A DNA stretch of 64,000 nucleotides. Origin: Oscillospiraceae bacterium. GTDB taxonomy: Bacteria; Bacillota; Clostridia; Oscillospirales; Ruminococcaceae. This document shows, in pieces, positions 10,181 to 25,035 of the stretch (position 1 is its first letter; every line of letters starts with the position of its first letter). The notes under the pieces were generated by a model, which did not search any database, had not been told where the DNA came from, and was given only the letters and a program-made list of their open reading frames with translations. Position numbers and translations under genes: made by a program. The stretch lies in contig JALEOL010000024.1 in NCBI GenBank assembly GCA_022766785.1, forward strand, positions 14,153 through 78,152, in the 5' to 3' direction.

Positions 10181-13081
10181 TTATTCCGCCGCTCTCAGAA
10201 CTGCTTCACTGTAAAGCGCAATTCCCCGGGTGCTGTTCGGGTGTATCCAGTCGATGAGATAGTCCGTCTGCACCTCCAGACTGAACACACGATTTAGTTC
10301 GGCGGCAGGGTCGCTGAACACAAAGCCGTTTTCGCCGCAGTATTCAGCCAGCGCCGCCGAATACTCCGCAAGCAGCCGGTCGCGCTCCTGCGCCGGGATA
10401 ACGCACGCTTTGTCGTTCTCAAGTGCGCACCACGGCGCGACAAACGCAAATTCCGCGTCCGGTCTCTCCTCCCGTATGCGCCGCACAAAGCCGTCGATCC
10501 GGGCGATGTAGTCCTCCGCGGTCATCGCGCAGAGGCTCTTGTCACGGTAACGCACATCGTTCGTGCCTATCGCGACAACGTACAGCGAGCTGTCCGCCGG
10601 GACTTCTCCCAGTATCGACCGTGTGGTGGCTCCTCCCCTTGCGGTCACGCGCCAGTCCGGAACCGCTCCGCAAAGCGGCTCAAACCAGCCGTAGCCGCCG
10701 TTTTTCGTGCCATGGGTAATGCTGTCCCCCACGAACCTGACCGTCTCCGCGCCGCTCAGCTGCTGATACAGTGGTGAGCTTTCAAGCTCCGGCGTTATTT
10801 CCAGAGGAACGACTTCCGGGGCGAGATACCCTTTCTCGTCAAGATAGCAGCGCTCCGCCGCCATATTGAACGGCAGCTCCACCCCGAGCACGGTGGACGT
10901 GATATGCGCCCAGACCTCCTTAACGCGCGCCAGGTCGTCCGCGGAAACGCCGCCGTCTGTAAGCCCGGCTATCGGCACCGGGCGGTAATTTCCGCCGTTT
11001 TCCGCGGTTATCCACATCGGAACGACAGCGGCGCCCACAGGCTTTCCGGTCTCCCGGTCGATGTAGACCTCTGCGATGATAGAGCAGTCGCCGTTGTGCT
11101 CCCGGTAAATATTCATGAAATTGCCGGGGCAGTTCACCGTGATCTTTCCGTCGGTAAATTCCACCGGCTGGACTGAATGCGTGTGGTCGCTCAGAATGAT
11201 ATCCGCGCCCTGCTCCCGGAAGAAAGCGTTCCAGGTGTTCTGATAATCGTCCGGCTGGTCAAGGAACTGCGTTCCCATATGTGGGAGGACTACTATGAGA
11301 TCCGGCTGCATTGACTTCGCCAGCGCAAAATCTGCCGCGACCTCTGCCTTTGCCCTGTCGTAATTCGCCCCGGACGGGTCGGCAAGCGCACTTGTGAGAT
11401 ACGAAAGGCTGCCGCCCTCCAGCAGCGTATCCTCGCCATAGCCGTTTGAGCCGAAGGTGTAGCTCAGCACCGCAAGGCGCAGTCCCCCGGTCTCCACCAG
11501 CTTCACCCGGCGCTCCGACTTATCCTCCGCGCTGCGATAGCTCCCGGTGCTGTCAAGACCTGCCTGCTCCAGTATATCCAACGTGCGCAGCGCTCCGCTT
11601 TCGCCCTTGTCAAGCAGGTGGTTGTTCGCGGTGGTCACAAGGTCGAAGCCGGCTTCCTTTACCGCGGCGGCGAACTCGTCCGGGTAGTTCAGGCACACTG
11701 TTTTTCCGTCGTCGTAGTTGCTGGTGGAATAGCCTGCTCCCTCGCCTGCCATAGGACCTTCAAATACCCCGATGGCGAGATCGGCGGAGGATATCAGCTC
11801 CCGGGTGGGGTCGAAAATATCGCCGAAATCATAGCTGCCGTCCTCCTGCCTGCCCAGCTTCACCTGATCCTCCAGCAGCAGAAGATCCCCGGCGAACACC
11901 AGCTTAAAACACCCGTCGAACTGCTCCTGCTGTTCCGGGGTGATCCTGCGGAATATCACATCGCCGCTTTCCGCCGAAGCGCTTTCCTGCTGAACCTCGT
12001 CAGCGCCGCTTGGAATGCAGTCCCGTATGCTTTTGACAAGCGGTACTGCGAACACCGCCGCCGCAAGCGTGACTACCGCCGCCCGGTAAGCGAGCTTCCT
12101 GCTGTCCTTAGTCTTTCCTAAGCCGGAGAGCAGCAGCTCCGAGCCGTATTTTCCGAGAGCACGGACAAACCTCTCCACCGACGGCAGCGAGAACACCGCC
12201 GTCAAAGCCAGCGAAGCGCCGAACGCCACGAGCAGCACGGCATATTCCGGCAGTCCGCCGATATTCCTGCCTATCCAGATCGTCGGCAGCCTGTGCAGCA
12301 GGAACACCGCCAGAGAGCTCTGCCCGAAACGGCTGAGCAGGGGTATTTTCCTGTCCGGCAGCAGGAACATCACCGCGAGTATCACAAGCGCGGCAATTAC
12401 AAAGATAACGCCCCGGTCGATAAGCCCGAAAACCCCGGAGAACGGCTCCATCATCATGCTGCCCAGAGTTACCTCCCGGCTCACGAACAGATACGACAGA
12501 AAGCTGCACACCATAAGCAGCAGGGCGCATTCCACCCGGCGGAACGACTTCGCACGCAGCGCGCTTTCCGCCTTTTCGGAGGGCAACATATATCCGGCGA
12601 GGAAGAACGGCAGGAACGAAATTATCCTTGATATGCTCAGCACGTTAGTCACATCGCCGAAGAAGCCGCACAGCAGCGCCGCCGCGACGCTCACGGGAAT
12701 GATATGCGGTCTGCCCGAAAGCCACTGCGCGGACGCTCTCCAGGCAATGACCGCCAGCAGATACCAGAATGAATACACCGGAGTCACCAGCAGCGACATC
12801 ACTCCGCCCGGCGCAGCAAAGCACATCGCAAAATTGAACACGAAATAAAGCGACAGCAGCCCGAAAAGGCTCTCCTGGCTGCGGCTGTGGCTGCTTTTGC
12901 TGAGATAGCCCGTGGTGAACACGAACGCCGGCATGTGGAATATGTAAATTATATTCAGCACCGGCGTGATAAGCTCACCGCCGCTGGTCTCATACAGGAT
13001 ATGCGCGAATACGACAAGGAAAATAAGTATCCCCTTGAAATTATCCCAGAAATAAACCCTGGAGCTGGTATTATCAGGCAT
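10181..13081 (-). CDS. Fusion: membrane acyltransferase-3 + CapA/PGA_cap metallophosphoesterase-like + SGNH/GDSL domain
   Basis: N-term WDNFKGILIFLVVFAH...FHMPAF (AT3); middle FAGDLLL, ANNHLLDKG, PHMG, HTHSVQP (CapA); C-term GDSIT, GTND, DWIHP (SGNH). Confidence 0.85.
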   Translation of the reverse strand: MPDNTSSRVYFWDNFKGILIFLVVFAHILYETSGGELITPVLNIIYIFHMPAFVFTTGYLSKSSHSRSQESLFGLLSLYFVFNFAMCFAAPGGVMSLLVTPVYSFWYLLAVIAWRASAQWLSGRPHIIPVSVAAALLCGFFGDVTNVLSISRIISFLPFFLAGYMLPSEKAESALRAKSFRRVECALLLMVCSFLSYLFVSREVTLGSMMMEPFSGVFGLIDRGVIFVIAALVILAVMFLLPDRKIPLLSRFGQSSLAVFLLHRLPTIWIGRNIGGLPEYAVLLVAFGASLALTAVFSLPSVERFVRALGKYGSELLLSGLGKTKDSRKLAYRAAVVTLAAAVFAVPLVKSIRDCIPSGADEVQQESASAESGDVIFRRITPEQQEQFDGCFKLVFAGDLLLLEDQVKLGRQEDGSYDFGDIFDPTRELISSADLAIGVFEGPMAGEGAGYSTSNYDDGKTVCLNYPDEFAAAVKEAGFDLVTTANNHLLDKGESGALRTLDILEQAGLDSTGSYRSAEDKSERRVKLVETGGLRLAVLSYTFGSNGYGEDTLLEGGSLSYLTSALADPSGANYDRAKAEVAADFALAKSMQPDLIVVLPHMGTQFLDQPDDYQNTWNAFFREQGADIILSDHTHSVQPVEFTDGKITVNCPGNFMNIYREHNGDCSIIAEVYIDRETGKPVGAAVVPMWITAENGGNYRPVPIAGLTDGGVSADDLARVKEVWAHITSTVLGVELPFNMAAERCYLDEKGYLAPEVVPLEITPELESSPLYQQLSGAETVRFVGDSITHGTKNGGYGWFEPLCGAVPDWRVTARGGATTRSILGEVPADSSLYVVAIGTNDVRYRDKSLCAMTAEDYIARIDGFVRRIREERPDAEFAFVAPWCALENDKACVIPAQERDRLLAEYSAALAEYCGENGFVFSDPAAELNRVFSLEVQTDYLIDWIHPNSTRGIALYSEAVLRAAE

Positions 13082-13217: not shown

Positions 13218-13652
13218 TCACCTTATCTCAACATTGTATTCCCTCAGCCAGAACTCCGTCTGGAGCATGTATGCGTATATCTGCGGCAGCGTCATCAGCT
13301 GACCGTACCAGTTTTTGGTGAAGCTCGCTCCGTTCGTGTCCAGCAGCTCCCGGAGCTTGTCGGCGCTCACCAGCTCGACTAACCGGCAGTCGTCCCTGTC
13401 CAGAACGCTGCGCAGCCTTTCGCTCAGCAGTCTGAGATATTCCGGGTCGTAGGTCTTTGGGTAAGGGCTTTTCTTCCGCCAGAGCACGTCGTCCGGCAGT
13501 ATTCCGGTCATGGCATGGCGCACAAGCCCCTTTTCCCTGCCGTTGTACGCCTTCATCTCCCAGGGCACGTTATAGGCGTACTCCACCACGCGGTAGTCGC
13601 AGAACGGCACGCGAACCTCCAGCCCGTGCGCCATGCTCATTCTGTCCTTGCG
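13218..13652 (-). CDS. asnB: 3' segment (144 codons + stop) of split glutamine-hydrolysing asparagine synthetase (AsnO/AsnB type)
   Basis: RKDRMSMAHGLEVRVPFCDYRVVEY...REKGLVRHAM...LWRKKSPYP; no proper start/RBS; begins immediately after the TGAC core. Confidence 0.92.
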   Translation of the reverse strand, partial: RKDRMSMAHGLEVRVPFCDYRVVEYAYNVPWEMKAYNGREKGLVRHAMTGILPDDVLWRKKSPYPKTYDPEYLRLLSERLRSVLDRDDCRLVELVSADKLRELLDTNGASFTKNWYGQLMTLPQIYAYMLQTEFWLREYNVEIR

Positions 13653-13681
13653 GTCACGCCGCGTCACATGGGTAAAACAGT

Positions 13682-15199
13682 TCACACAACAAAACTGACC
13701 TCTACCGGGGAGGCTTTGTCCCAGACCGTGACCCGCGCTATCAGCAGCTTTGCTATCGCTTTCCGGTCGGCAAGAGAAAGATCCTCCCAGTCCTCCAGCA
13801 GCGGCAGGATACGGTCGGCGGCGCTCTCCTGCTTTGCTTCGGCAGAATACCGCTGTATATCGGCGTTAAGCTCGCTCAGCTGACGTTCAAGGACTGCCAT
13901 TTTCTCGTTCAGCCTTGTCCGGAGCAGCGCGTTTTCAGCCTGCGAAAAGCTCTCCACAATGCCGCTTATCTCCTCCTCCAGCTTTATTCTCCGGGCTTTG
14001 AGGGAGTTCAGCCCGGTCTCCTCTGCGGCTGACCTGTCCGCGGAATGATAGCGCAGCCCCTTTGCACGCTCCAGCAGAGCAGCACTAACGGCGTTCTCGA
14101 TCTCGTCAAAGGTAATGCCGCTCTTTCCGCCGCAGCAGACGTGGTGCTTCCTGCCGCCGCAGTACAAATAACGCTTCCCGTTGTGCTGACCGCTGACGAC
14201 ATTAACCGCATAGCCGCAGAAGCCGCATTTTATCAGCCCGGACAGCCAGCTGTGCGTTCCCCTGCCGCTGTTTCTGAGCGCCTTGTTCTCGGATAGGCGG
14301 CGCTGCACCCTCAGCCAGTCGCCGGCGGAAATGAAACCCTCGTGCCGGTTGAGCTGAATGTGTTCGCCCTCAAGGTCGCGGAATTTGCTCCTCGTCTTTC
14401 CCTGACGATGACCGTAGACCGTGCAGCCGCACACTCCTGCGAACTCGCTCACATCGTTGTGGAGCACCGCGCCCCGGCTCACGAAATAGGAATACACGTC
14501 CGCGTCCGCCCGGACATACACAGGGTTCGCCAGTATCCTGCTTATGCGGACGCTGCTGAACCGGATATCCTGATCTGTCCCGTGTTCCGGGGAATTCAGC
14601 TCCGCCGCTATCTCGCCGATAGATCTGCCGGACAAATAGCTGCGGTAAATGTACTTCACGATATGACTGGTGCTGACATCTTCTTCAAGCCTGCTGGTCT
14701 TTTTGCCGTCGATCTGGTCTGCGATCTTCCGGTACCCAAGCGGCGCTGCGCCCGCCATGAAAAATCCCCTCTCCGCCCTGCTGTAAAAATTGTCGGTCAC
14801 ACGCTTCTGGATAGTCTCGCGCTCCAGCTGCGCAAAGATAAGTATCACCCGGAGCATGGCTTCGCCCGTAATGCTTGTGGTGTCAAAATCCTCGGTCGCG
14901 GACACGAAATCCACATGGTGCCGCTTCAGTTCCCGATAGGTCAGCTCAAAATCCAGCACCGAACGGCTCATGCGGTCGATCCTGTAGACGATCACCTTGC
15001 TCAGCCTGCCGGCTCTGACGTCGGACATCAGGCGCTGAAAGTCCGGGCGGTTGGTGTTCTTTCCGCTGTAGCCCCTGTCGCTGTACACCATTACGTCGGT
15101 CTCGCCTTTCCGGAGCTTTGCGCGGCATTCCTGCTCCTGGGTCTCAACGCTGATACTGTCCTTTTTGTCCACCGACTGTCTGCAATATATCCCTGTCAC
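13682..15199 (-). CDS. Large serine recombinase (resolvase + recombinase + zinc-ribbon domains; SpoIVCA/CisA-like)
   Basis: Catalytic IYCRQS, YSDRGYSGKNTNRPDFQRL, RIDRMSR, GLIKCGFCG...YLYC. Start placed at GTG 15199 after RBS GAGGTG. Confidence 0.95.
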   Translation of the reverse strand: MTGIYCRQSVDKKDSISVETQEQECRAKLRKGETDVMVYSDRGYSGKNTNRPDFQRLMSDVRAGRLSKVIVYRIDRMSRSVLDFELTYRELKRHHVDFVSATEDFDTTSITGEAMLRVILIFAQLERETIQKRVTDNFYSRAERGFFMAGAAPLGYRKIADQIDGKKTSRLEEDVSTSHIVKYIYRSYLSGRSIGEIAAELNSPEHGTDQDIRFSSVRISRILANPVYVRADADVYSYFVSRGAVLHNDVSEFAGVCGCTVYGHRQGKTRSKFRDLEGEHIQLNRHEGFISAGDWLRVQRRLSENKALRNSGRGTHSWLSGLIKCGFCGYAVNVVSGQHNGKRYLYCGGRKHHVCCGGKSGITFDEIENAVSAALLERAKGLRYHSADRSAAEETGLNSLKARRIKLEEEISGIVESFSQAENALLRTRLNEKMAVLERQLSELNADIQRYSAEAKQESAADRILPLLEDWEDLSLADRKAIAKLLIARVTVWDKASPVEVSFVV

Positions 15200-15252
15200 A
15201 TTATCCCACCTCAAAGACAATGGAGCGCGAAAATATCACGCCCCGTTTTCCG

Positions 15253-15384
15253 CTATGCGCTCTTCTGCGGCTTCGCCTGCTTCTTCTGAGCCGCCGCTAA
15301 TTTCAGCAGTCCGTCCGTTATGACACCTATCCTCTGGCTGCGTTCCTCCTCGCTCAGCTGTGGGTATACCAGCTTTACCTGCAT
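15253..15384 (-). CDS. Unannotated 43-aa protein upstream of the recombinase; candidate recombination directionality factor
   Basis: RBS GAGGTGA 5 nt before ATG; MQVKLVYPQLSEEERSQRIGVITDGLLKLAAAQKKQAKPQKSA*; below the ORF-track size cutoff. Confidence 0.65.
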   Translation of the reverse strand: MQVKLVYPQLSEEERSQRIGVITDGLLKLAAAQKKQAKPQKSA

Positions 15385-15433
15385 TCGCCTCACCTCATCA
15401 CAAGTAATGCTGTACTGTTCGTCCGTTATTCAC

Positions 15434-15466
15434 AAAAAAGCAGGCGGAGCGACTCGCCCCACCTGC
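15434..15466 (-). terminator. Intrinsic terminator separating the cargo from the small ORF/recombinase unit
   Basis: GCAGGTGGGGCGAGTCGCTCCGCCTGC-TTTTTT on the minus strand. Confidence 0.75.
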
Positions 15467-15472
15467 ACTTTC

Positions 15473-17240
15473 TTATTCAATAACGAACTGCTTTACCTCG
15501 TCGCAAAGCTGAACCGCCTGAGTATTAAGCTCCTCGCAGGAAGCAGCGATCTCCTGCGCGGCTGCGCTGGTCTGCTGCACAACGTCGGATATCTGCGAAA
15601 TGCCGTTGGTGATCTGCCCGATCGACTTTGACTGATACTCCGCAGCGGCGGAAATATCGCCGATCATCTGCTTTGTTCTGCCGAATATCTCCACCACAGA
15701 TCCCAGCGACTGAGCGTTCTTTTCCGCGATCTCAGACCCCTCCGACACCGCCGATACCGCCGCCGTGATAAGCTGCGACGTTGTGCGGACGGCTTCTGCG
15801 GATTTTGCAGCAAGGTTTCTCACCTCGTCGGCTACCACTGCAAAGCCCTTTCCTGCCTCCCCTGCCCTTGCCGCCTCTATCGCGGCGTTGAGAGCAAGGA
15901 TATTCGTCTGGAATGCGATATCGTCTATCGTCTTGTTTATCCGTTCGATCTCGCCGGACTGCTTAGGGCAATACCGCATAATTATTGTCGTGCGATTGCG
16001 CCGCAGATTTTTCGTTAGATTGTACAAATTGAGTGCAGACAGGCTGACGCCTTTCAAGCGAAATTTGTGCAAGATAACGGAAAAGATGCAAGCAAGCGTG
16101 CGGCAAAGGCGACAGCCGGTAATTGTGCGGTATTGCCTTAGAGATGTTCTCCATTGCGGACATCATCTGATCCATGTACCTGTGCTGTTCGTCAAGCACC
16201 GCCGAGCCGTTGTCCGCAAGCTCCAGAGCGCCGCGCGACTTGTCCGCGGTCTCGTTCACCTTCGCAGATATCTCGCCCAGCGATGAGGAAAGCTCCTCGA
16301 TAGCCTCCGCCTGACGCACAGTTCCTGCCGCCAGAACGTCCGAGCCTTTTGCGGAAGCCGAAGCGTCGGCGTTTACGTTATCTGAGGTGACGTTGATCTT
16401 TGAGATGATCTGCTTCATCTGGTCAGAAATAAGCTCCACCGACCGGTTCAGCTCAACAAAATCGCCGCTGTACACCGCCTCGGTGTGTTCCGTGAAGTTC
16501 CCGGCAGCCATCGAACCCAGCACCCGGGACAGATCCTCAATGTACCCGTGCAGAGTATCGCGCATGTTCTCCACCTGCGAAAGCAGCTCGCCTACCTCGT
16601 CCTTTCCGTGACGGACATCGGTTATCTGACAGCTGAGGTTGCCCTTGTTCATCTCCTTTGCCAGTTCTCCGATATGAACCACCGGGGTGAGTATCCTGCG
16701 TCTGATGATCCTGAGACACACGATCACCGCTGCGGCAGTTATGACAATAGTAAGACCGACTCCCACAATGCTCATGACAAGCATTTTCTGGTCAAGCATA
16801 CCGTTGATAACGCCGGTCTGGTAGCCGCCGAAATACGCGCCGATGATATTGCCGTTTTTATCCGTCATCGGCTCGTAGCATACCACATAATCGCTTCCGC
16901 CTATGGTCGTTCTGCCCAGATAGGTCTGACCCTTTTGCAATACACGTTCGGCGATCTCTGCGGACATTTCCGAGCCTTCGATACGTTTTCCGTCCTCGCC
17001 CTCAATGGTGGTGGCGTACCTTATGTTGTCCCTGAATATGGTGAACTGACCGCCGGTTTTTTCGCGGACAGGATCAAGATGATCATATGCGCGCAGGTCG
17101 TATCCTGCTATGAACGACCCGGCTCCGTCGATCTTTGTCAGATAGCAGTAGTACAATCTGTCGCTGTCGTAATTGAGACCGTCTGTAACGGAAGAAAGGC
17201 TGGCGTTCTGCGGGAAATTCTCCGTCGCACATATCTGCAC
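15473..17240 (-). pseudogene. Methyl-accepting chemotaxis protein (Cache-TM-HAMP-MCP signal), interrupted by a MITE and apparently 5'-truncated
   Basis: [37 protein letters not shown] in the downstream ORF; Cache/HAMP in the upstream ORF; removing 15967-16141 restores ...[12 protein letters not shown]...; first TM helix missing. Confidence 0.88.
15967..16137. mobile_element. 171-bp MITE with 18-bp terminal inverted repeats and 4-bp target duplication TTAG
   Basis: TIRs GGCAATACCGCATAATTA / TAATTGTGCGGTATTGCC (17/18 match); TTAG at 15963-15966 and 16138-16141. Confidence 0.9.
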
Positions 17241-17301
17241 GCCAGTTGTGTTATTTTGTTTGATCTGCGCTATTGCTGATACACATGGTCTGCCCCGGGG
17301 G

Positions 17302-18681
17302 TCAACCCTCGCAGGTATCCGTGATGTTGCTTATCCAGATACCCTTTCTTATCAGCACATAACCGATGACAAGCTTCAGTATATCCGCCGCCTGAATAAT
17401 GGTGTATATCACAAAAACAGACAGCGAACTGAACCGGCAGAGCAAAAACGCCGCCGGAACAACGATCACCCAGGTGAACACGCTGTCGAACAGAAAGGTC
17501 ACAAAGGTCTTTCCGCCGGAACGCAAGGTGAAATACAGCGCGTTGAGATAGCCCTGCACCGGGAAAAACAGTGCGGTTATCACAATAAACAGCGCAGCGT
17601 TCTTCCGTATTTCGTCCGTTGTGTCATAGAAATCCGGGAACACGCCCGAGACGCTGACAAGTATCACGGTCAGGATAATGCAGATACCGCCGGTGAACCT
17701 CATCAGCGCAAAGGAGTCCTTTTTCGCCTGTTCATACTGCTTCGCGCCGAGGGTCTGACCTATCAGGATACCCACCGCGTTGCCCAGGGCGATGAACACG
17801 ACGTTCAGCAGGTTGCACAGCGCGTTAGAAATATTAATTCCGGGAACGATATCAAGCCCCAGAATGGAATAATTCTGCGTCAGCGCTGCAATGCCGCCTG
17901 CCCACAGGAACTCGTTAAAGAATATCGGCAGTCCCTTTCTGATAATGACCGAGGCGGTTTTCACCGGCACCAGCATAGTCCTGTACGCTCCCTGCAAAAA
18001 GGCATGACGCTTCTTTCTGACGAACGCCCAGACTATCACCACCAGCATTTCCACCACCCTAGCAATGACGGTAGCAAGCGCTGCGCCTTTCACGCCCATT
18101 TCGGGGAAACCGAGCTTTCCGAAGATCAGCAGATAGTTGAACAGAATATCCGTCACAACAGAGAACACGCCGCCGATCATCGGTTTAATGCTGTCGCCGG
18201 TTTCCCTCAGCGTGCTTGCAAAGATCTGCGTCACGGCAAACGGCAGCAGTCCCCACAGCATTATCCCGAGGTATTCCCCGGCAAGCTGCATTGTGAGCAC
18301 GGGATCGACAGTTTCGCTCTCCCCCTGAAGATACAGCCCGATAAGCTTATCGCCGCCCAACGTGAAAGCCAGCAGCCCCAGCGCAAGGCATACCGCGCAG
18401 ACATAGTGCTTTATCCGGAAAGTGTTCCTGACCCCCTCGATATCGCCTTTTCCGTAATACTGCGCGGAATAGATACCGGGCCCGGACAGCCCTCCGAACA
18501 CCGCCAGATTGAATACGAATATCAGCTGACCCACGATAGAGACCGCGGATATCGCCTCAGTGCCGAGATTTCCCACCATGATATTGTCGATAAGCCCTAC
18601 CATGTTGGTTATCCCGTTTTGTATCATCATGGGCACCGCAAGCGCCAGCGCCCGTTTGTATATGCTGTTGTTCTGATACAT
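17302..18681 (-). CDS. MATE family efflux transporter
   Basis: LAVPMMIQNGITNMVGLIDNIMVGNLG; FGKLGFPEMGVKGAALATVIAR; about 12 hydrophobic segments; start at MYQNN after GGAGAGGGAG. Confidence 0.93.
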   Translation of the reverse strand: MYQNNSIYKRALALAVPMMIQNGITNMVGLIDNIMVGNLGTEAISAVSIVGQLIFVFNLAVFGGLSGPGIYSAQYYGKGDIEGVRNTFRIKHYVCAVCLALGLLAFTLGGDKLIGLYLQGESETVDPVLTMQLAGEYLGIMLWGLLPFAVTQIFASTLRETGDSIKPMIGGVFSVVTDILFNYLLIFGKLGFPEMGVKGAALATVIARVVEMLVVIVWAFVRKKRHAFLQGAYRTMLVPVKTASVIIRKGLPIFFNEFLWAGGIAALTQNYSILGLDIVPGINISNALCNLLNVVFIALGNAVGILIGQTLGAKQYEQAKKDSFALMRFTGGICIILTVILVSVSGVFPDFYDTTDEIRKNAALFIVITALFFPVQGYLNALYFTLRSGGKTFVTFLFDSVFTWVIVVPAAFLLCRFSSLSVFVIYTIIQAADILKLVIGYVLIRKGIWISNITDTCEG

Positions 18682-18726
18682 GTTCTCCCTCTCCTGTTTC
18701 ACGTTTTTTAGAAATGCCCTTTAGTA

Positions 18727-20259
18727 TTACTCTCGCCAATACTCCGAGCCATAGCCCGTCCTGCCCATCAGCTTCAGATCTATCATTTCCCTGCGGATAA
18801 TCGCATAGTCAGAAAAGGTAATATTCTGCATGATGATCTCATTGACCTCTTTTTCGGTGTATATCCTGCCTTTCTCAAAGCATTCCGCTATTCTTCCGAG
18901 GGCAACGATCCTCAGCGGTCTCTTTCGCGGATACTGCGTCAGGCGGCCGTCCCTGTCGTAAAATACAGACGCTTTCTTCCGGTAAGCGATATTTCTGCTA
19001 AGCTCGCACAGCTTTTCATTCAGTTCGCCGATATGCTTTTCGAACCACACCAGCAGCCCCGACGCCAGGTCAGCCTGTTCCAAATAAATATGCCTGTTAT
19101 TTGAAATGGAATCGTAATACTGCCCGTAAAAATTGCATACAGCCAGGAAGTAATAGAACAGCTTCCCTGCGTTTTCTATGTCATAGGCGTTCAGCGTGCC
19201 GATCTCTATATAGTCGTCGATATAGCGTATCAGAGCCTCTATATTTATCTCTCCGCGCCCCGTCTCCGGCGCCATAAAGACATAGGATCGGACGATCTCC
19301 CAGATATACGGGTGCCGGCAGACGCAGGTCCAGTCAACGATCCCGTTCACCTTATCGTCAAGCCATACGAGCTGTGAGATCGTGTAATCGCCGTGGGTGT
19401 TGCCACATGTGAATTTGTCTGTATCGAACTCATACGAGGGCATAGACCCGACAATTCTCATATTGGAACGTATCGCTGCTGCGATATCCTTATCGCCGTT
19501 ATCCTCCGCCTGCCTGAGAGTCTGAAGATAACTTTCCTGTATGTATTGAGGCTTTCTGTGTTCGAAAAAACCGCTGCCTATACCGGTGGGAATATTCTCC
19601 ATATCCCTCATTGCCGCGTGTATCTCTGCAAGCAATACCGCCGACGCTTTCTGCAGACCCACGGGCGCTTCATTGCAGCCATAGGTCACGCCCTCATAGA
19701 ACTGCTGGACGGTAAATCTTCTCCCGTTCTCATCGGTGGAGAGCATTCTGCCATGCTTATCGGGAATAAATCTGCATGCCGGAATGCCTTTCTTTAAGAG
19801 CTGACTGCACACGCGTATCTCCGTTTCCGGGTGATTCATCGCATTATCGGAGGGGTACTTCACAACGTACTTTGCGCCGTTTGCAGTTACGAAATAGGTA
19901 AGCCCCCCAGCGCCGTTCCCGGAGGTCTCCATGGTCTCTGTCTCAATGTCGTAGAGCTTGTATATACGCATTCGCAGCTGCTCGAATTCCAGCTGTCTGA
20001 CCAGTTCCAGCCGCGACCTGTCGATAATGTTCATAAGCTCCAGAATTGGTATGGATTCTCCTGCCAGAAGTTCGTTCACGGTTATACCCAGGATCCGGCA
20101 CAAAGGCTCCATATATACGACCTCCGGCAGCCCGTTGCCGCACTCCCACTTTGATACCGTCTTTTCGCTTATTCCCAGTCTTGCCGCTATGTCTTTCTGC
20201 AAAAGACCGCGTTCTTTTCTGCGCATGGCGATGAATTTTCCTGTCTTTATCTGATCCAT
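18727..20259 (-). CDS. XRE HTH + APH/choline-kinase-like phosphotransferase + DUF2087-like wHTH fusion
   Basis: N-term IAARLGISEKTVSKWECGNGLP; HGDY...GIVDW kinase motifs; C-term YTEKEVNEII...DYAIIRREMID...GSEYWR. Confidence 0.8.
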   Translation of the reverse strand: MDQIKTGKFIAMRRKERGLLQKDIAARLGISEKTVSKWECGNGLPEVVYMEPLCRILGITVNELLAGESIPILELMNIIDRSRLELVRQLEFEQLRMRIYKLYDIETETMETSGNGAGGLTYFVTANGAKYVVKYPSDNAMNHPETEIRVCSQLLKKGIPACRFIPDKHGRMLSTDENGRRFTVQQFYEGVTYGCNEAPVGLQKASAVLLAEIHAAMRDMENIPTGIGSGFFEHRKPQYIQESYLQTLRQAEDNGDKDIAAAIRSNMRIVGSMPSYEFDTDKFTCGNTHGDYTISQLVWLDDKVNGIVDWTCVCRHPYIWEIVRSYVFMAPETGRGEINIEALIRYIDDYIEIGTLNAYDIENAGKLFYYFLAVCNFYGQYYDSISNNRHIYLEQADLASGLLVWFEKHIGELNEKLCELSRNIAYRKKASVFYDRDGRLTQYPRKRPLRIVALGRIAECFEKGRIYTEKEVNEIIMQNITFSDYAIIRREMIDLKLMGRTGYGSEYWRE

Positions 20260-20491
20260 TGTTTTTCTCCATTCACAATTTTTTCATGGAGTGATTATAT
20301 CATTTTTAATTATAGATTGGAACCCACGCTCCGTAGGATCCGATACCTGATCACTGCTATGTCTTTTTTATTATACTACATTTCCCCGTTTTTTTCAACT
20401 GGTTTTCATCGCGGAACAGCAAACGCCCCGGCTATGGTATGCCAGACATATAAGGTGTGATCCGGTCAGCGGCGCATAATTAATTTCTCTA

Positions 20492-20520
20492 TTGACTAAC
20501 AGCACAATTTAGTATATAAT
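20492..20520 (+). promoter_or_regulatory. sigmaA promoter of the HD-GYP gene
   Basis: TTGACT-17-TATAAT. Confidence 0.7.
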
Positions 20521-20580
20521 AGTATACAGAGCGATCCCCACCCTATAACAAAAGGCACCTCTATAATAAACGGTGATAAT

Positions 20581-23505
20581 ATGAAAAAAACCATTACTAT
20601 ACTTCTTTCTCTCGTGATAATGTTCGCCGCGTCGGTAAATGCCTTTGCGGAACACACCATGTCCTATGTCGGAAGTATCTTCAACGACCGCAACGGGCTT
20701 CCCACAGGTGAAGCAAACGCAGTCGTACAGACCCCCGACGGCTACATCTGGATAGGAAGCTACGCCGGGCTTATCCGCTACGACGGCACCGTGTTCCGCA
20801 ATTTCAGCGAGGAGGGCGCGCTCCAGACCGCCACGGTGCGTTCGCTGTTCGTGGATTCCTCCGGGCGGCTGTGGGTCGGCTCCAACGACATGGGCGTGTT
20901 CTGCATGGAGAACGACGTTTTCGTTCAGCCGGAGGGTCAGCCTGCGGACAGCTTCTCCACGATACGCAGCTTCACCGAGGGAGAAAACGGCGATATCTAT
21001 GTGTCAAGCTCCTCGGGGCTTGCAAGAGTTTCCGGCGGCGTGATGTCCATTTACGACGCGCCCGAGCTTTTCGGGCACACTGTATACTCCACCGCAGTCG
21101 ATAAATTCGGACGGGTGTGGTGCTCCACCAACTCCGGCTGCTGCGTTATCCTGCCGGACGGCACTATTGAGGGCACCCCGGACAGCAGCCTTATCTTCCG
21201 GGACGGGGAGAATATCTACAGCCTTGCCTCGGGAAAGGACGGAGCTGTCTGGTTCGGCTCTGACAGCAATATTCTTGCAATGGCGGAGTTCACAAGTAAG
21301 GCACTCTCCCCTGACGGGCTGAAAGTTACCTATTACAGCACGGAAAACGTCTATACCCACAACAGCATTGGCGTGCTCCCGGACGGCGGCGTGACAGTCC
21401 ACGGGCTGCGCGGCTTCGGGATACTCAGAAACGGCGGGTTCCTCGGCTTCGGAGAGGACGAGGGCGCGGCTTCGGTGGAGGGTTCCTGCGTTGACTATGA
21501 GGGCAATATCTGGCTCGCTTCCTCCACAAACGGCGTCGTGAAATTCACCGAGGGCTGCTATTCCACCCCGGACAGCAGCGCCGGGCTTTCCGGCAAATCC
21601 CTGAACACGATAGTTGGACAGGGCGGCTATTTCTTCATGGGAACGGACAACGGGCTGCTTATCTGCACGGAAAACTGGAAGCCGGTCTCAAACGACCTGA
21701 CCGCCGGTCTTGACGGAATAAGAGTGCGCCATATCATCGCAGACAGCAAGGGATATGTCTGGATAGCGTCCTATTCAGATACCCCGGTTATACGCGTTGA
21801 CCCTGCGAACTGGGAAACGGTATGCTACACCCAGGCTGACGGGCTTGCGGACAGGAACGCGCGTACTCTGCTGGAAATGTCCGACGGCTCGATAGCTGTG
21901 GGAATGCAGAACGGGCTGAGCATTATCACCCCCGCAGGAAACATCACCGGCTACAACGACCTCGCATATCCTGCTATACTCTGCATGACCGAGACCAGCA
22001 CCGGCGCTCTGCTTGCCGGCAGCGACGGCGGCGGTATCTACGAGATAGACGGCGGAAATATCACCGTGCACAGCTACTCCGAGGGACTGGACAACGGCAT
22101 TATACTGCGCATTATCGAGGACTCGAAACCGGGCTGCCTGTTCGTCAGCACCAGCAGCGGCATGTTTTATTATAACGGCACATCATTTCGAAAATTGTCG
22201 AAACTGAACAAAAGCCCCGGCAACATATTTGATATGTACCTTGTGGGCGACAGCCTTTACCTGCTGCAGAACAGCGGAATACTGACGATCCCCCGGGAGG
22301 ACGTTATTGCTGACAACGGCGCTCCCTCGCTCAGCTACGGGTTTGAGCACGGGCTTTCCGGCTCGCTGTATGCAAATACCTGGCACTGGCTCTCGCCGGA
22401 CGGGAAGCTGTACCTCGCCACAAGCAGCGGCGTGAGCATTTTCGGGTTCCACCAGCCCGAGAGCATTCTGCCAAAGGGCGTGGTGAACAGCATAACCGTG
22501 GACGGCACGGTGACAGAGCACCCACAGTCGCTGGAGATAAAAAAGGGCGCGCACCGTATCACGATCGATTTCGCGGCGCTCTCATACACCGGAACGACGC
22601 GCCTTGCGATAGCCTACAAGCTGGACGGCTTCGACAGCGAGGAGACGGTCATCACAGGCGAAAAGAAAGCGAACATCAGCTACACCAACCTGCCCGGCGG
22701 CGAATACACCTTCACCATGCGGATATTCCTCACCGACCACCCGGAGCAGAGCGAGACCTACACCGTCCCGATAAAAAAGGAAAGAGCCTTTTCCGAAAAG
22801 CCGGCGTTCGTGGCGCTGCTGATATTCTGCGGCATTGCCTTTGCGGTGGGAATTACCAGCCTTATTCTTTTCGCAAGGATAAGGGTGATGAAGCGCCGGC
22901 AGAAGATGTATAAGGAGATCATCGACCAGTCGCTGAAAACCTTTGCCGGGACGATAGACGCCAAGGACAAGTACACCAACGGACATTCCCTGCGCGTGGC
23001 GAAATACTCCCAGGAGCTGGCGCGCCGCATGAACATGAGCAAGGAGGAGCAGGAGCGGATATACTACATCGCCATGCTCCACGACATCGGAAAGATCGGT
23101 ATCCCCGACAACATTCTGAACAAGCCCGGAAAGCTCACCGATGAGGAACGGCAGATAATCCAGAAGCACCCTGCGATAGGCGCAGATATACTAAAGAACT
23201 ACACGGCGATCGAGGGCATTGCGGACGGTGCGAGATACCACCACGAAAGGATCGACGGAAAGGGCTACTGCGAGGGGCTTTCCGGGGACGATATTCCGCT
23301 GATCGCCCGTATAATCGGCGTTGCGGACACCTATGACGCTATGTCCAGCAGGCGCTGCTACCGTGACTGCCTGTCCTCGGACGTTATCATTGAAGAGCTG
23401 AAGCGCGTGGCAGGCAGCCAGCTCGACCGGGATATAGTTCCGCACATGCTGGATATGATAAAGGACGGCACAGCACCGATAATTCTCCCCGAGGACAAGG
23501 CATAA
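20581..23505 (+). CDS. Membrane sensor HD-GYP phosphodiesterase: signal peptide, beta-propeller (Reg_prop) repeats, YYY domain, TM, HD-GYP
   Basis: DGYIWIGS/GRLWVGS repeats; SYTNLPGGEYTF; DKYTNGHSLRV, LHDIGKIG, HHERIDGKGY, VADTYDAM. Confidence 0.9.
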   Translation: MKKTITILLSLVIMFAASVNAFAEHTMSYVGSIFNDRNGLPTGEANAVVQTPDGYIWIGSYAGLIRYDGTVFRNFSEEGALQTATVRSLFVDSSGRLWVGSNDMGVFCMENDVFVQPEGQPADSFSTIRSFTEGENGDIYVSSSSGLARVSGGVMSIYDAPELFGHTVYSTAVDKFGRVWCSTNSGCCVILPDGTIEGTPDSSLIFRDGENIYSLASGKDGAVWFGSDSNILAMAEFTSKALSPDGLKVTYYSTENVYTHNSIGVLPDGGVTVHGLRGFGILRNGGFLGFGEDEGAASVEGSCVDYEGNIWLASSTNGVVKFTEGCYSTPDSSAGLSGKSLNTIVGQGGYFFMGTDNGLLICTENWKPVSNDLTAGLDGIRVRHIIADSKGYVWIASYSDTPVIRVDPANWETVCYTQADGLADRNARTLLEMSDGSIAVGMQNGLSIITPAGNITGYNDLAYPAILCMTETSTGALLAGSDGGGIYEIDGGNITVHSYSEGLDNGIILRIIEDSKPGCLFVSTSSGMFYYNGTSFRKLSKLNKSPGNIFDMYLVGDSLYLLQNSGILTIPREDVIADNGAPSLSYGFEHGLSGSLYANTWHWLSPDGKLYLATSSGVSIFGFHQPESILPKGVVNSITVDGTVTEHPQSLEIKKGAHRITIDFAALSYTGTTRLAIAYKLDGFDSEETVITGEKKANISYTNLPGGEYTFTMRIFLTDHPEQSETYTVPIKKERAFSEKPAFVALLIFCGIAFAVGITSLILFARIRVMKRRQKMYKEIIDQSLKTFAGTIDAKDKYTNGHSLRVAKYSQELARRMNMSKEEQERIYYIAMLHDIGKIGIPDNILNKPGKLTDEERQIIQKHPAIGADILKNYTAIEGIADGARYHHERIDGKGYCEGLSGDDIPLIARIIGVADTYDAMSSRRCYRDCLSSDVIIEELKRVAGSQLDRDIVPHMLDMIKDGTAPIILPEDKA

Positions 23506-23541
23506 GCTGCGGTTTACGGGCAATAAACGGTGACGAATAAG

Positions 23542-23579
23542 CGAGCGACACTCCGAAAAAGGCGTGCCGCTCGTTTTTT
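23542..23579 (+). terminator. Terminator of the HD-GYP gene just inside the element end
   Basis: CGAGCGACAC...GTGCCGCTCG-TTTTTT. Confidence 0.65.
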
Positions 23580-23643
23580 CGTATTCACCGGGATAAAGCG
23601 TACATTCTCGGTTTAAAAGGGATTTTACCTTTGTATCACTATC

Positions 23644-25035
23644 GTCAAGCAGCGTTGCCATGAAATAGTCCATATTCATCATGAACATCTCCCTCATGCG
23701 GCGCTCCCCGGGGCTGTCGCTGTCGAGATACTCCGTCCGGGAAATGCACTTGCTGCAGCTTCTACGAACGTATTCCTCCGCCTCTATTCCGGACATCGGG
23801 CGCTTCATCAGCTCCGCCCTTTCGGGAACGGCAGTAGACCATGGGAAACCGTCATAGAACAGTAATTCCCTGCGGTGATACCACGGATATCCCCCAAGCA
23901 CCTCGTCCGCGCATTCCCCGGAGAGCGCCACCGGGAAGCGCTTTCGTATCTCCCTGCAGAACAGGTACAGCGAGCTGTCCACGTCCGCCATTCCAGGGAG
24001 ATCCCGCGCCCGGGTGGAGTCCTCCAGCGCGTCCGCAAGCGCCGGGGTTTCCAGTATCACGTTGGTGTGCTGCGACCCGATGTGCTCCGCCATGCGCACT
24101 ATCCAGGGGGCGTCCTCGTCCGGCTGGAAGCTGCTGGCGCGGAAATTCCTGTGGTTGTCCCTGTAGTCTATTGACCAGGTGGAAAGCTGCCTGCCCTGCT
24201 TTCGGAACTCCTCCGCAGCGACCGCCGAGATCACGCTGCTGTCCAGTCCCCCGGACAGAAAACAGCACAGCGGCACGTCGCTCACCAGCTGCCGCTTTAT
24301 TGCGTCGGTGAGAAGCTCCCTGATATGCGCCGAGGTCTCCTCAAAGCTCTCCGTGTGCGGCTTTGCGTGGACCTTCCAGTATTCCGTCAGGGTAAATCCC
24401 TCATCGGTCAGCACCGCGTAATTTGCCGGGGGTATCTCGCTGATATCGCGGAAAACGCCGCTGCCCACCCTCTTAGCCGGGCCTATCAGCATGATGTCCG
24501 CAATGCCGCTCTCGTCTATCACCGGTCTCACCTGGGGGTGCTTCAGCAGCGCCTTTATCTCGCTGGCGAACACTATGCCGTCCCGGGTATGGCTGTAGAA
24601 CAGCGGCTTTACGCCTATCCTGTCCCTTGCAAGGAAAAGCCTGCGCCTGCGGCTGTCCCATACCGCAAACGCAAATATACCGTTGAACTGCTTTACGCAC
24701 TCGTCGCCGTATTCCGCGTAGGCTCTCAGCACCACCTCGGTATCCGAATGCCCGGAAAACTCCACGCCGCGCCCCATAAGCCCAAGCCGAAGCTCCTGCG
24801 TATTGTAAAGCTCCCCGTTGTACACCAGCGTGTAACCGCCATAACTCATGGGCTGCGCACCGTTATCCGGGTCAATGACCGCAAGACGGCGATGTACAAG
24901 ATATGCGTGATCGTCAACATACACCCCCGAGGCGTCAGGTCCCCGGGGAGCTATAGCCTCGCTCATCTGCGTCATCACCGCGCTCATCTGCCGCATGTTT
25001 TCATGGTATCCTATCTGACCTGCAATACCGCACAT
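23644..25035 (-). CDS. asnB: 5' segment (464 codons) of split asparagine synthetase (AsnO/AsnB type)
   Basis: N-terminal MCGIAG (Ntn Cys), RGPD, YNGELYN, ARDRIGVKPL, LSGGLDSS, SGECADE; homology ends at FMATLLD; RBS AAAGGAG. Confidence 0.93.

What the first reader, a model, noticed from the sequence alone, without database searches (positions are those of the whole stretch)
13653..23647. Base-pair-resolved att sites: symmetric attP around TGAC
Seen: joining the element ends (minus strand) gives TTTTACCCATGTGACGCGGCG-TGAC-GATAGTGATACAAAGGTAAAA. The two 21-nt arms are equidistant from the core, have a perfect outer inverted repeat TTTTACC/GGTAAAA and match at 12 of 21 positions overall. The predicted attB is ATGGCAACGCTGCT-TGAC-CGCAAGGACAGAAT, with central dinucleotide GA. 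Known: large serine recombinases use ~45-50-bp imperfectly palindromic attP sites and a 2-bp crossover. Inference: a complete recombinase/attB/attP set, potentially usable as an integration tool.
Basis: partly seen in the sequence, partly recalled or inferred. Interest (0 to 1): 0.8.

Follow-up and report, generated by a model that had tools for sequence, protein, structure and literature searches.

The report
Serine-recombinase island splitting asparagine synthase gene
A 10-kb mobile island sits inside a gut bacterium's asparagine synthase gene, and comparison with related genomes fixes its recombination sites almost to the base pair; it is a well-defined but ordinary serine-integrase system.

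Summary
TGAC (minus strand) stands at 13653-13656 and 23644-23647. The two flanks are the halves of one asparagine synthase gene (asnB). Removing the element with one core copy gives an open 619-codon gene. Of 11 congener loci, 10 carry the uninterrupted site and 1 a related element.

A full-length large serine recombinase (LSR, 13682-15199, minus strand) ends 4 nt from the outer edge of the attP arm. The genus holds 14 more genomes with an LSR of 51% identity or more; 12 show asnB downstream. Of 13 LSRs at 42-46% identity in other Clostridia, 9 also flank asnB.

In 11 reconstructed attP sites the core shared with attB shrinks to TGA in 9. Dyad symmetry peaks between G and A in all 11 (sum 163 against 98 at the next best offset). 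Two elements are inserted in the opposite orientation, keep the arm register and read TC at the centre. The central dinucleotide GA is therefore supported.

Not shown:
- any recombination activity
- a directionality factor
- attB half-site motifs

Excision with the recombinase alone should fail. This is a new member of a known kind, of moderate interest.

The parts
13657..23647 (-). Integrated island, 9,991 bp counted with one copy of the core.
   Evidence: Distance between the two core copies. Alignment to empty sites breaks exactly here.
13653..13656 (-). Core copy at the recombinase-side junction (TGAC on the minus strand). The inferred crossover dinucleotide GA is 13655-13654.
23644..23647 (-). 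Core copy at the far junction (TGAC on the minus strand). The inferred crossover dinucleotide GA is 23646-23645.
13655..13677 (-). attP half-site P (positions -1 to -23), next to the recombinase gene. Its outer edge lies 4 nt after the recombinase stop codon.
   Evidence: In register with 11 related junctions. Half-site position counts.
23623..23645 (-). attP half-site P' (positions +1 to +23).
23646..23665 (-). attB half-site B, about 20 nt of asnB coding sequence; its extent is assumed.
   Evidence: Conserved in empty sites. No attP-like motif could be shown in it.
13635..13654 (-). attB half-site B', about 20 nt of asnB coding sequence; its extent is assumed.
13682..15199 (-). Large serine recombinase, 505 aa from the GTG at 15199. 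The mechanical ORF starts at a TTG at 15220.
   Evidence: Resolvase, Recombinase and Zn_ribbon_recom domains. Orthologues start at the position of the GTG.
23648..25035 (-). asnB 5' fragment: glutamine amidotransferase domain plus Asn_synthase profile positions 1-221.
13218..13652 (-). asnB 3' fragment: Asn_synthase profile positions 225-353.
15473..17240 (-). Cargo: methyl-accepting chemotaxis protein (sCache, HAMP, MCPsignal), split by a 177-bp repeat at about 15964-16140.
17302..18702 (-). Cargo: MATE efflux protein.
18727..20259 (-). Cargo: protein with HTH_3, APH-type phosphotransferase and DUF2087 domains.
20581..23505 (+). Cargo: protein with Reg_prop repeats, Y_Y_Y and HD_5 (HD-GYP-like) domains.

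Best explanation
A 9,991-bp cargo island was inserted into the coding sequence of asparagine synthase (asnB) by its own large serine recombinase. The insertion lies at the Asp codon of a conserved Leu-Leu-Asp-Arg-Lys-Asp-Arg-Met stretch. The reaction was attP x attB site-specific recombination. attP is an imperfect palindrome of about 46 bp that starts 4 nt after the recombinase stop codon. attB is the asnB sequence. Shown here: the junctions are exact to within the 3-4 bp shared core. Inferred here: the 2-bp staggered cut and exchange take place at the non-palindromic dinucleotide GA in the centre of that core. From established serine-integrase mechanism, that dinucleotide sets the orientation of insertion. 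Integration needs only the recombinase and the two sites; excision would need an unidentified directionality factor (inferred from the family's known behaviour).
For: - Domains: Resolvase, Recombinase and Zn_ribbon_recom are present and DUF4368 is absent.
- Conserved residues: in 14 aligned orthologues R14 and S16 of the N-terminal motif are at least 90% conserved; D82, R83, R86 and four cysteines (C332, C335, C354, C362) are invariant.
- Host gene: the two flanks match Asn_synthase profile positions 1-221 and 225-353. The in-silico join is an open 619-codon gene.
- Empty sites: 10 of 11 congener loci have the uninterrupted site; the 11th (L010) holds a related element at the same position.
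- Recurrence within the genus: of 101 genus genomes, 14 besides this one have an LSR of 51-74% identity, and the next best is 40%. 12 of the 14 have the asnB 3' fragment downstream; the other two contigs are too short.
- Recurrence outside the genus: 9 of 13 LSRs of 42-46% identity in other Clostridia MAGs also flank asnB. None of the listed LSRs of 41% identity or less does.
- Register: all 12 recombinase-side junctions align without gaps.
- Core: attP and attB share exactly TGA in 9 of 11 elements, TGAC here, and 10 nt in one.
- Symmetry: the dyad score is maximal at the G|A centre in all 11 attP sites (12-18 of 23; sum 163, next best offset 98; the T|G centre sums 74).
- Half-site conservation over 22 half-sites: T at -22 to -20 (21-22 of 22), C at -18 (16), T at -12 (22), C at -9 (20).
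- Flipped elements: L079 and L085 are inserted in the opposite orientation, keep the arm register and read T|C at the centre. L085's host has GGA instead of TGA, so only GA is kept.
- Not a misassembly: contigs from other studies (X2, X3) bridge both junctions and X5 bridges the recombinase side.
- Horizontal spread: for G100 against G058, LSR dS is 0.31 while asnB 5' fragment dS is 1.23.
Against: - No recombination product was seen. Only assembled contigs could be laid. They gave no clean empty-site or circle joint for this organism, only one weak joint 13626->23877 in X3 with a 21-nt side.
- attB shows no dyad peak at the centre (sum 88, against 114 at -6).
- attB half-sites score negatively against the attP half-site matrix. 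The attB centre therefore rests on the shared core alone.
- On this element alone the symmetry is marginal (12 against 11 at another offset).
- One of 7 same-orientation third-tier junctions (L089) does not show the arm motif.
- The compared elements are related, so the 11 attP sites are not 11 independent tests.
- The structure model is of low confidence (mean pLDDT 57.8).
Confidence: 0.85

Rival explanations
1. The sites and mechanism are the same, but the 2-bp crossover is TG rather than GA.
For: Sequence identity between attP and attB allows either dinucleotide: the shared core is TGA in 9 of 11 elements.
Against: The dyad score with the centre between T and G sums to 74, against 163 for G|A. 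In the two flipped elements the conserved arm positions keep their distance to the centre only if the centre is GA/TC. L085's host reads GGA at the site, although its attP is not known.
Confidence: 0.1
2. The island is a stranded relic. It was inserted by this mechanism, but the recombinase or the sites no longer work in this organism.
For: No excised form or empty site of this strain was seen. No directionality factor was found. Diverged strains from three other studies carry the island at the same place. One cargo gene is broken by a repeat.
Against: The recombinase frame is full length with all conserved residues. LSR dN/dS between orthologues is 0.10-0.14. The arms fit the family consensus. 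A near-identical LSR pair sits in hosts with far more diverged asnB, which indicates recent transfer in the clade.
Confidence: 0.2
3. The island is a regulated intervening element of the skin/sigK or SPbeta/spsM type. It excises under some condition to rebuild asnB, so that asparagine synthesis is switched by recombination.
For: Precise excision would restore an intact gene. In the own genome (85.75% complete) only the two asnB halves match PF00733, and no AsnA (PF03590) was found. Split halves have no stops in 10 other occupied genomes. Their dN/dS is 0.01-0.17, including the pair G096/G049 in which LSR dS (0.29) is close to asnB dS (0.34-0.45).
Against: Occupancy is patchy (15 of 101 genus genomes). 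Cargo is unrelated between elements. There is evidence of horizontal transfer. All of this fits an ordinary mobile element whose insertions are recent. No regulator or directionality factor was found. In G049 the asnB 5' part is further split over two contigs.
Confidence: 0.12
4. The TGAC pair is a target-site duplication made by a transposase, or a chance repeat, and the recombinase is a bystander.
For: A 4-nt direct repeat alone is weak evidence.
Against: No transposase domain was found in the six large ORFs. The recombinase is the only gene common to all elements at this site. The conserved palindromic arms stand at a fixed distance from the core in 12 of 12 recombinase-side junctions within the genus, and in 8 of 9 more distant ones.
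Confidence: 0.01

Closest known systems
Listeria phage A118 / LI serine integrase with its attP and attB (PMC3783163; passages read)
   Same: Same three-domain enzyme type. attP is a pseudo-palindrome with half-sites of about 23-25 bp whose outermost conserved feature is a run of T. The site lies inside a host coding sequence. The central dinucleotide is non-palindromic.
   Different: Sequence relatedness is low: the A118/LI chain is not among the 12 PDB sequences matched at E<=1e-5. The T run here is at positions 20-22, not 22-24. The 5-bp inward shift of the zinc-ribbon motif in attB could not be shown. The element is not a phage.
Bxb1 integrase (PMC3642061; passages read)
   Same: Small attP and attB (48 and 38 bp in Bxb1), with partial symmetry and little similarity outside a short common core. 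[quoted passage not shown]
   Different: Bxb1 is a mycobacteriophage integrase with an 8-bp common core. Here the core is 3-4 bp, the host is a gut Clostridia lineage and the element is a small cargo island.
Computationally paired LSRs and att sites of Durrant et al. 2022 (PMC10083194; passages read)
   Same: Same logic (occupied against empty sites) and same class: a site-specific LSR without DUF4368, with several diverged LSR clusters targeting one conserved site in one gene, as in their prolyl isomerase example.
   Different: asnB is not named as a target in the passages I read. Their tables are in supplements that I could not open, so this clade or target may already be listed there.
Gene-interrupting LSR elements of spore formers: skin with SpoIVCA in sigK, SPbeta with SprA in spsM (biology recalled from memory; SprA/YokA structures matched at E 1.5e-8)
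   Same: An LSR-bearing element splits a chromosomal gene, and precise excision would rebuild it.
   Different: No evidence here of regulated excision. The target is a metabolic gene. The elements are 4-17 kb cargo islands with unrelated contents.
TP901-1 integrase (best PDB match, catalytic domain 3bvp, E 4.9e-14) and phage integrases in the phage collection
   Same: Catalytic domain family.
   Different: The best full-length phage match is only 30.5% identical, and all 792 matching records are below 60%.

Membership tests
Large serine recombinase (serine integrase) | N-terminal resolvase-type catalytic domain | tested here: met
   PF00239, E 4.7e-32, residues 11-152.
Large serine recombinase (serine integrase) | C-terminal Recombinase domain followed by a zinc beta-ribbon domain | tested here: met
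   PF07508 E 1.4e-15 and PF13408 E 6.5e-11. Four cysteines are invariant in 14 orthologues.
Large serine recombinase (serine integrase) | Conserved nucleophile serine and arginines of the catalytic pocket | tested here: met
   R14 and S16 are at least 90% conserved; D82, R83 and R86 are invariant. That S16 is the nucleophile is recalled from its position in the family motif, not tested.
Large serine recombinase (serine integrase) | Coiled-coil motif inserted in the zinc-ribbon domain | tested here: inconclusive
   Two long helices, 398-427 and 431-460 (block pLDDT 66-82), in a model of mean pLDDT 57.8. No fold search was made.
Large serine recombinase (serine integrase) | Catalyses attP x attB recombination without host factors | not testable with these tools
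   Needs an assay.
Serine-integrase attachment sites | attP of about 45-50 bp, an imperfect palindrome | tested here: met
   Dyad maximum at one centre in 11 of 11 sites. Conservation reaches out to position 22 on both arms.
Serine-integrase attachment sites | Non-palindromic 2-bp crossover shared by attP and attB | tested here: met
   The shared core is TGA or longer in 11 of 11 elements. The symmetry centre is G|A. The flipped elements read T|C. The cut itself was not observed.
Serine-integrase attachment sites | attB shorter than attP, with the zinc-ribbon motif shifted about 5 bp inward | tested here: inconclusive
   The attP half-site matrix gives negative scores on attB. The only positive match is a weak one of the outer motif, 2-3 bp inward on one arm.
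Serine-integrase systems | Cognate recombination directionality factor for excision | tested here: not met
   No gene other than the LSR is shared between this island and five related ones. Such factors are diverse, so one may be present but unrecognised.
Prophage | Phage structural, packaging or lysis genes | tested here: not met
   The five non-recombinase ORFs scanned here (two of them the halves of the split chemotaxis-receptor gene) carry signalling, efflux and kinase-like domains. Ten cargo ORFs from three related islands gave LRR, methylase, Schlafen/AlbA, small resolvase or nothing.
Integrative conjugative or mobilizable element | Relaxase, coupling protein or type IV secretion genes | tested here: not met
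   None in the ORFs scanned with Pfam. Small ORFs and oriT were not searched.
Regulated intervening element (skin / SPbeta type) | Precise excision rebuilds the interrupted gene | tested here: met
   In silico only: the 619-codon open join is collinear with intact orthologues.
Regulated intervening element (skin / SPbeta type) | Excision is programmed by a developmental or environmental signal | not testable with these tools
   Only contigs of public runs were available.

The most novel reading that the evidence does not exclude
The asnB-splitting islands are recombinase-operated switches rather than passengers. In carriers whose only detectable asparagine synthase gene is split, condition-dependent excision rebuilds asnB. 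This would explain why both halves stay open and under strong purifying selection across species.
Probability: 0.12. Interest if true: 0.65.

Novelty: new member of a known kind. Interest (0 to 1): 0.35.

Why it matters
The finding delivers a recombinase with attP and attB defined to 3 bp by sequence and to the dinucleotide by symmetry. It comes from an uncultured gut Clostridia lineage. It also comes with about two dozen natural variants, which give a half-site conservation map and two natural orientation flips. That is useful starting material for integrase tool building and for studying how these enzymes read their sites. It also marks a conserved asnB motif as a recurrent landing site. Thousands of such pairs have already been predicted by the same logic, so it does not change what is known about the mechanism.

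Tried and rejected
- attB symmetry and motif scan: no dyad peak at the centre, and the attP half-site matrix scores negatively on attB. This is inconclusive, not evidence against.
- Public runs: all 24 listed were kept as contigs. Laying X1, X2, X3 and X5 gave no clean joint for an empty site or a circle. There was only a weak joint 13626->23877 in X3 (side 21, letters between not known), probably a related organism's intact asnB. Absence in contigs says nothing about rare excision.
- Structure prediction from the 14-sequence alignment gave mean pLDDT 57.8. This is too poor for a fold search, so none was run.
- Order-wide sample: 1 of 400 other genomes had a match at E<=1e-120, at 39% identity. 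Only 3 candidates per genome were scored.
- Directionality factor: an all-against-all comparison of ORFs from six elements found only the LSR in common, apart from antisense ORFs overlapping it.
- Literature: three searches found no report of asnB as a serine-recombinase target. The hits were unrelated.
- I did not search collections for the attP or attB junction strings, because that would have needed a joined sequence typed into a tool.
- Complex prediction, the protein-database searches and the atlas were not used.
Full report
**Observation.** The plus strand reads GTCA at 13653-13656 and at 23644-23647. The 21-nt arms on either side of the core match at 12 of 21 positions when one is reverse-complemented, and the outer 7 nt match perfectly. 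Using every position of the window as background with the same geometry:
- 170 of 63,945 positions reach 12 matches.
- 6 of 63,945 have a perfect outer 7-mer.
- None has both.

The symmetry of this one element is real but modest. In a scan of 33 alternative centres the junction centre scores 12 of 23 and another offset scores 11.

**What is interrupted.** The flanks are the two halves of one glutamine-hydrolysing asparagine synthase gene.
- The 5' fragment has the amidotransferase domains and Asn_synthase profile positions 1-221.
- The 3' fragment has positions 225-353.
- Removing the element with one core copy gives 1860 nt with no stop.

I searched 41 genomes (this one and 40 relatives) with the 3' fragment, and 32 had a match. 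Of the 11 relatives' loci that were fetched and aligned, 10 run straight through the site with the predicted attB sequence or synonymous variants of it. One (L010) breaks exactly at the core and continues into a related element. The element ends are thus fixed by empty sites, not only by the repeat.

**The enzyme.** The ORF next to one end has the Resolvase, Recombinase and Zn_ribbon_recom domains and no DUF4368. Durrant et al. associate DUF4368 with multi-targeting enzymes (passages of PMC10083194). R14 and S16 are conserved in at least 90% of the sequences. D82, R83, R86 and four cysteines of the ribbon are invariant in 14 sequences. The best solved relatives are the TP901-1 integrase catalytic domain (E 4.9e-14) and SPbeta SprA (E 1.5e-8). 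The best phage integrase in the phage collection is 30.5% identical. An AlphaFold model was poor (mean pLDDT 57.8). It shows two long helices after the ribbon, as expected for the coiled-coil motif, but I give that little weight.

**A family of elements at the same site.** Among 101 genomes of the genus, 14 besides this one carry an LSR of 51-74% identity, and the next tier is at 40% or below.
- Eleven of the 14 have the asnB 3' fragment directly downstream.
- A twelfth has it 5.7 kb downstream.
- The other two contigs end too early.

A scan of one genome per species across bacteria found 13 further LSRs at 42-46% identity. The record titles call their hosts uncultured Clostridia, Oscillospiraceae, Acutalibacteraceae or Ruminococcus MAGs.
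- Seven have the 3' fragment downstream, starting at the same codon.
- Two have the 5' fragment on the opposite strand.
- Four show no asnB within the flank.
- None of the listed LSRs at 41% identity or less is next to asnB.

**The core.** The 12 recombinase-side junctions of the genus align without gaps. Far-side junctions were recovered for 10 relatives, giving 11 reconstructed attP sites. The stretch identical between attP and attB is TGA in 9 of them, TGAC in this element and 10 nt in G058. Sequence alone therefore confines the exchange to TG or GA.

**The centre.** For every one of the 11 attP sites the dyad score over 23 positions is highest when the centre lies between G and A (12-18). 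The sum is 163, against 98 for the next best of 33 offsets and 74 for a centre between T and G. Position counts over 22 half-sites:

| Position from centre | Base | Half-sites with it (of 22) |
|---|---|---|
| 20-22 | T | 21-22 |
| 18 | C | 16 |
| 12 | T | 22 |
| 11 | A | 16 |
| 10 | A | 17 |
| 9 | C | 20 |
| 7 | C | 17 |

There is little conservation beyond position 23. This implies an attP of about 46 bp whose outer edge lies 0-4 nt from the recombinase stop codon.

The two opposite-orientation elements (L079, L085) are a natural control. Their recombinase-proximal arm has the T run, C18 and T12 in the same register. The outer 20 nt of L079's arm are identical to those of the same-orientation element L078. 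Yet the centre reads T|C, the reverse complement of GA. L085's host reads GGA instead of TGA at the site, so only GA is retained. This is what the known rule predicts: the central dinucleotide alone sets polarity (PMC3642061, passage). The 11 sites come from related elements and are not independent. They do span LSR identities down to 51%, and the half-site motif extends to 42%.

**Results that do not fit or stay open.**
- attB has no dyad peak at the centre (sum 88; the highest is 114 at -6).
- A matrix built from attP half-sites scores attB half-sites negatively. I could not show the 5-bp inward shift of the zinc-ribbon motif described for A118 (PMC3783163).
- One of the seven same-orientation third-tier junctions (L089) lacks the arm motif.
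- No directionality factor was found, since the LSR is the only gene common to six compared elements.
- No excised form was seen. All public runs were available as contigs only, and these gave no clean empty-site or circle joint.

**Is it real DNA, and does it move?** Contigs from other studies bridge both junctions (X2, X3) or the recombinase-side junction (X5), at 90-99% likeness. The arrangement is therefore not an assembly artefact of this genome. Those strains lack 15692-17301, which is replaced by 25 nt there, so the chemotaxis-receptor gene is a variable part.

Comparison of species pairs:

| Pair | LSR dS | asnB dS | Reading |
|---|---|---|---|
| G100 / G058 | 0.31 | 1.23 (5' fragment) | Points to horizontal transfer and independent insertion at the same site |
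| G096 / G049 | 0.29 | 0.34-0.45 | Compatible with co-inheritance |
| G044 / G085 | 1.15 | 0.9-1.1 | Compatible with co-inheritance |

LSR dN/dS is 0.10-0.14. The asnB halves have no stops in the ten other carriers compared, and their dN/dS is 0.01-0.17.

**Kind of element.** Related elements measure roughly 4.4-17 kb (coordinates). This island carries a Cache-HAMP chemotaxis receptor, a MATE exporter, an HTH-APH-DUF2087 protein and a Reg_prop/Y_Y_Y/HD-domain protein. The receptor gene is split by a 177-bp repeat. Related islands carry BspA-type LRR proteins, a DNA methylase, a Schlafen/AlbA ATPase, a small resolvase or unknowns. No phage, relaxase or secretion genes were seen in the ORFs scanned. 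It is best described as a small cargo island whose only constant part is the compact recombinase-attP module.

**Consequence for the host.** In the own genome (85.75% complete) only the two halves match Asn_synthase, and no AsnA was found. The intact, selected halves leave room for the bolder reading that excision rebuilds the gene on demand, as in skin/sigK or SPbeta/spsM (recalled). Patchy occupancy, unrelated cargo and the sign of transfer fit ordinary recent insertions better. I put the switch reading at about 0.12.

**Comparison and novelty.** Everything tested fits a site-specific large serine recombinase system. The approach is the one Durrant et al. applied to thousands of enzymes, including cases in which diverged LSR clusters share one site in a conserved gene. 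Three literature searches found no report of asnB as such a target. The supplements of that paper, which I could not open, may list it.

**Verdict.** The att sites are correct to within the TGA, and GA is the well-supported crossover. Integration activity is probable but untested. Excision with the recombinase alone should not be expected. This is a new member of a known kind; interest 0.35.

Noticed in passing
window 15964-16140: A repeat of about 177 bp with 42-nt imperfect terminal inverted repeats (71% complementary) splits the chemotaxis-receptor gene. It has 44 matches in the own genome including itself, many at contig ends. Its depth in four metagenome runs is 50-205, against 5-50 for its neighbours. 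One X5 contig joins 15961 to 16137 without it. It looks like a MITE-type element.
   Followed up: partly
window 15692-17301: In contigs of three other studies (X2, X3, X5) this 1,610-bp stretch, most of the chemotaxis-receptor gene, is replaced by 25 other letters. The island's cargo therefore varies between strains.
   Followed up: no
L079:2486-2520 and L085:6208-6245: Two related elements in other Clostridia MAGs are inserted in asnB in the opposite orientation relative to the recombinase gene, and the centre reads TC instead of GA. Their far ends are not on the contigs.
   Followed up: partly
L012 (G004) and L008 (G001), empty asnB sites: These congeners have a Thr codon (ACG) where the others have the Asp codon that carries the crossover. 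GA is therefore missing at that register, and both sites are unoccupied.
   Followed up: no
G049:C12:9586-10086 and G049:C22:40546-40803: In this carrier the asnB 5' part is itself divided between two contigs, about 85 codons upstream of the island. This could be a second insertion, a rearrangement or a paralogue.
   Followed up: partly
G083:C4:229320-234986 (L063): In this relative 5.7 kb lie between the recombinase gene and the asnB junction, unlike the 0-4 nt in most elements. This may be extra cargo or a tandem element.
   Followed up: no
own genome, contigs C70 (6045-7864) and C36 (3066-4280): Three further serine-recombinase-like genes, at most 30% identical to this one. Two of them are adjacent on C70.
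   Followed up: no
window 10181-13081 (minus strand): A 966-aa ORF next to asnB combines Acyl_transf_3, PGA_cap and GDSL lipase domains in one frame.
   Followed up: no
own genome (G000): Only the two halves of the split asnB match PF00733, and no AsnA (PF03590) was found. The genome is 85.75% complete.
   Followed up: partly
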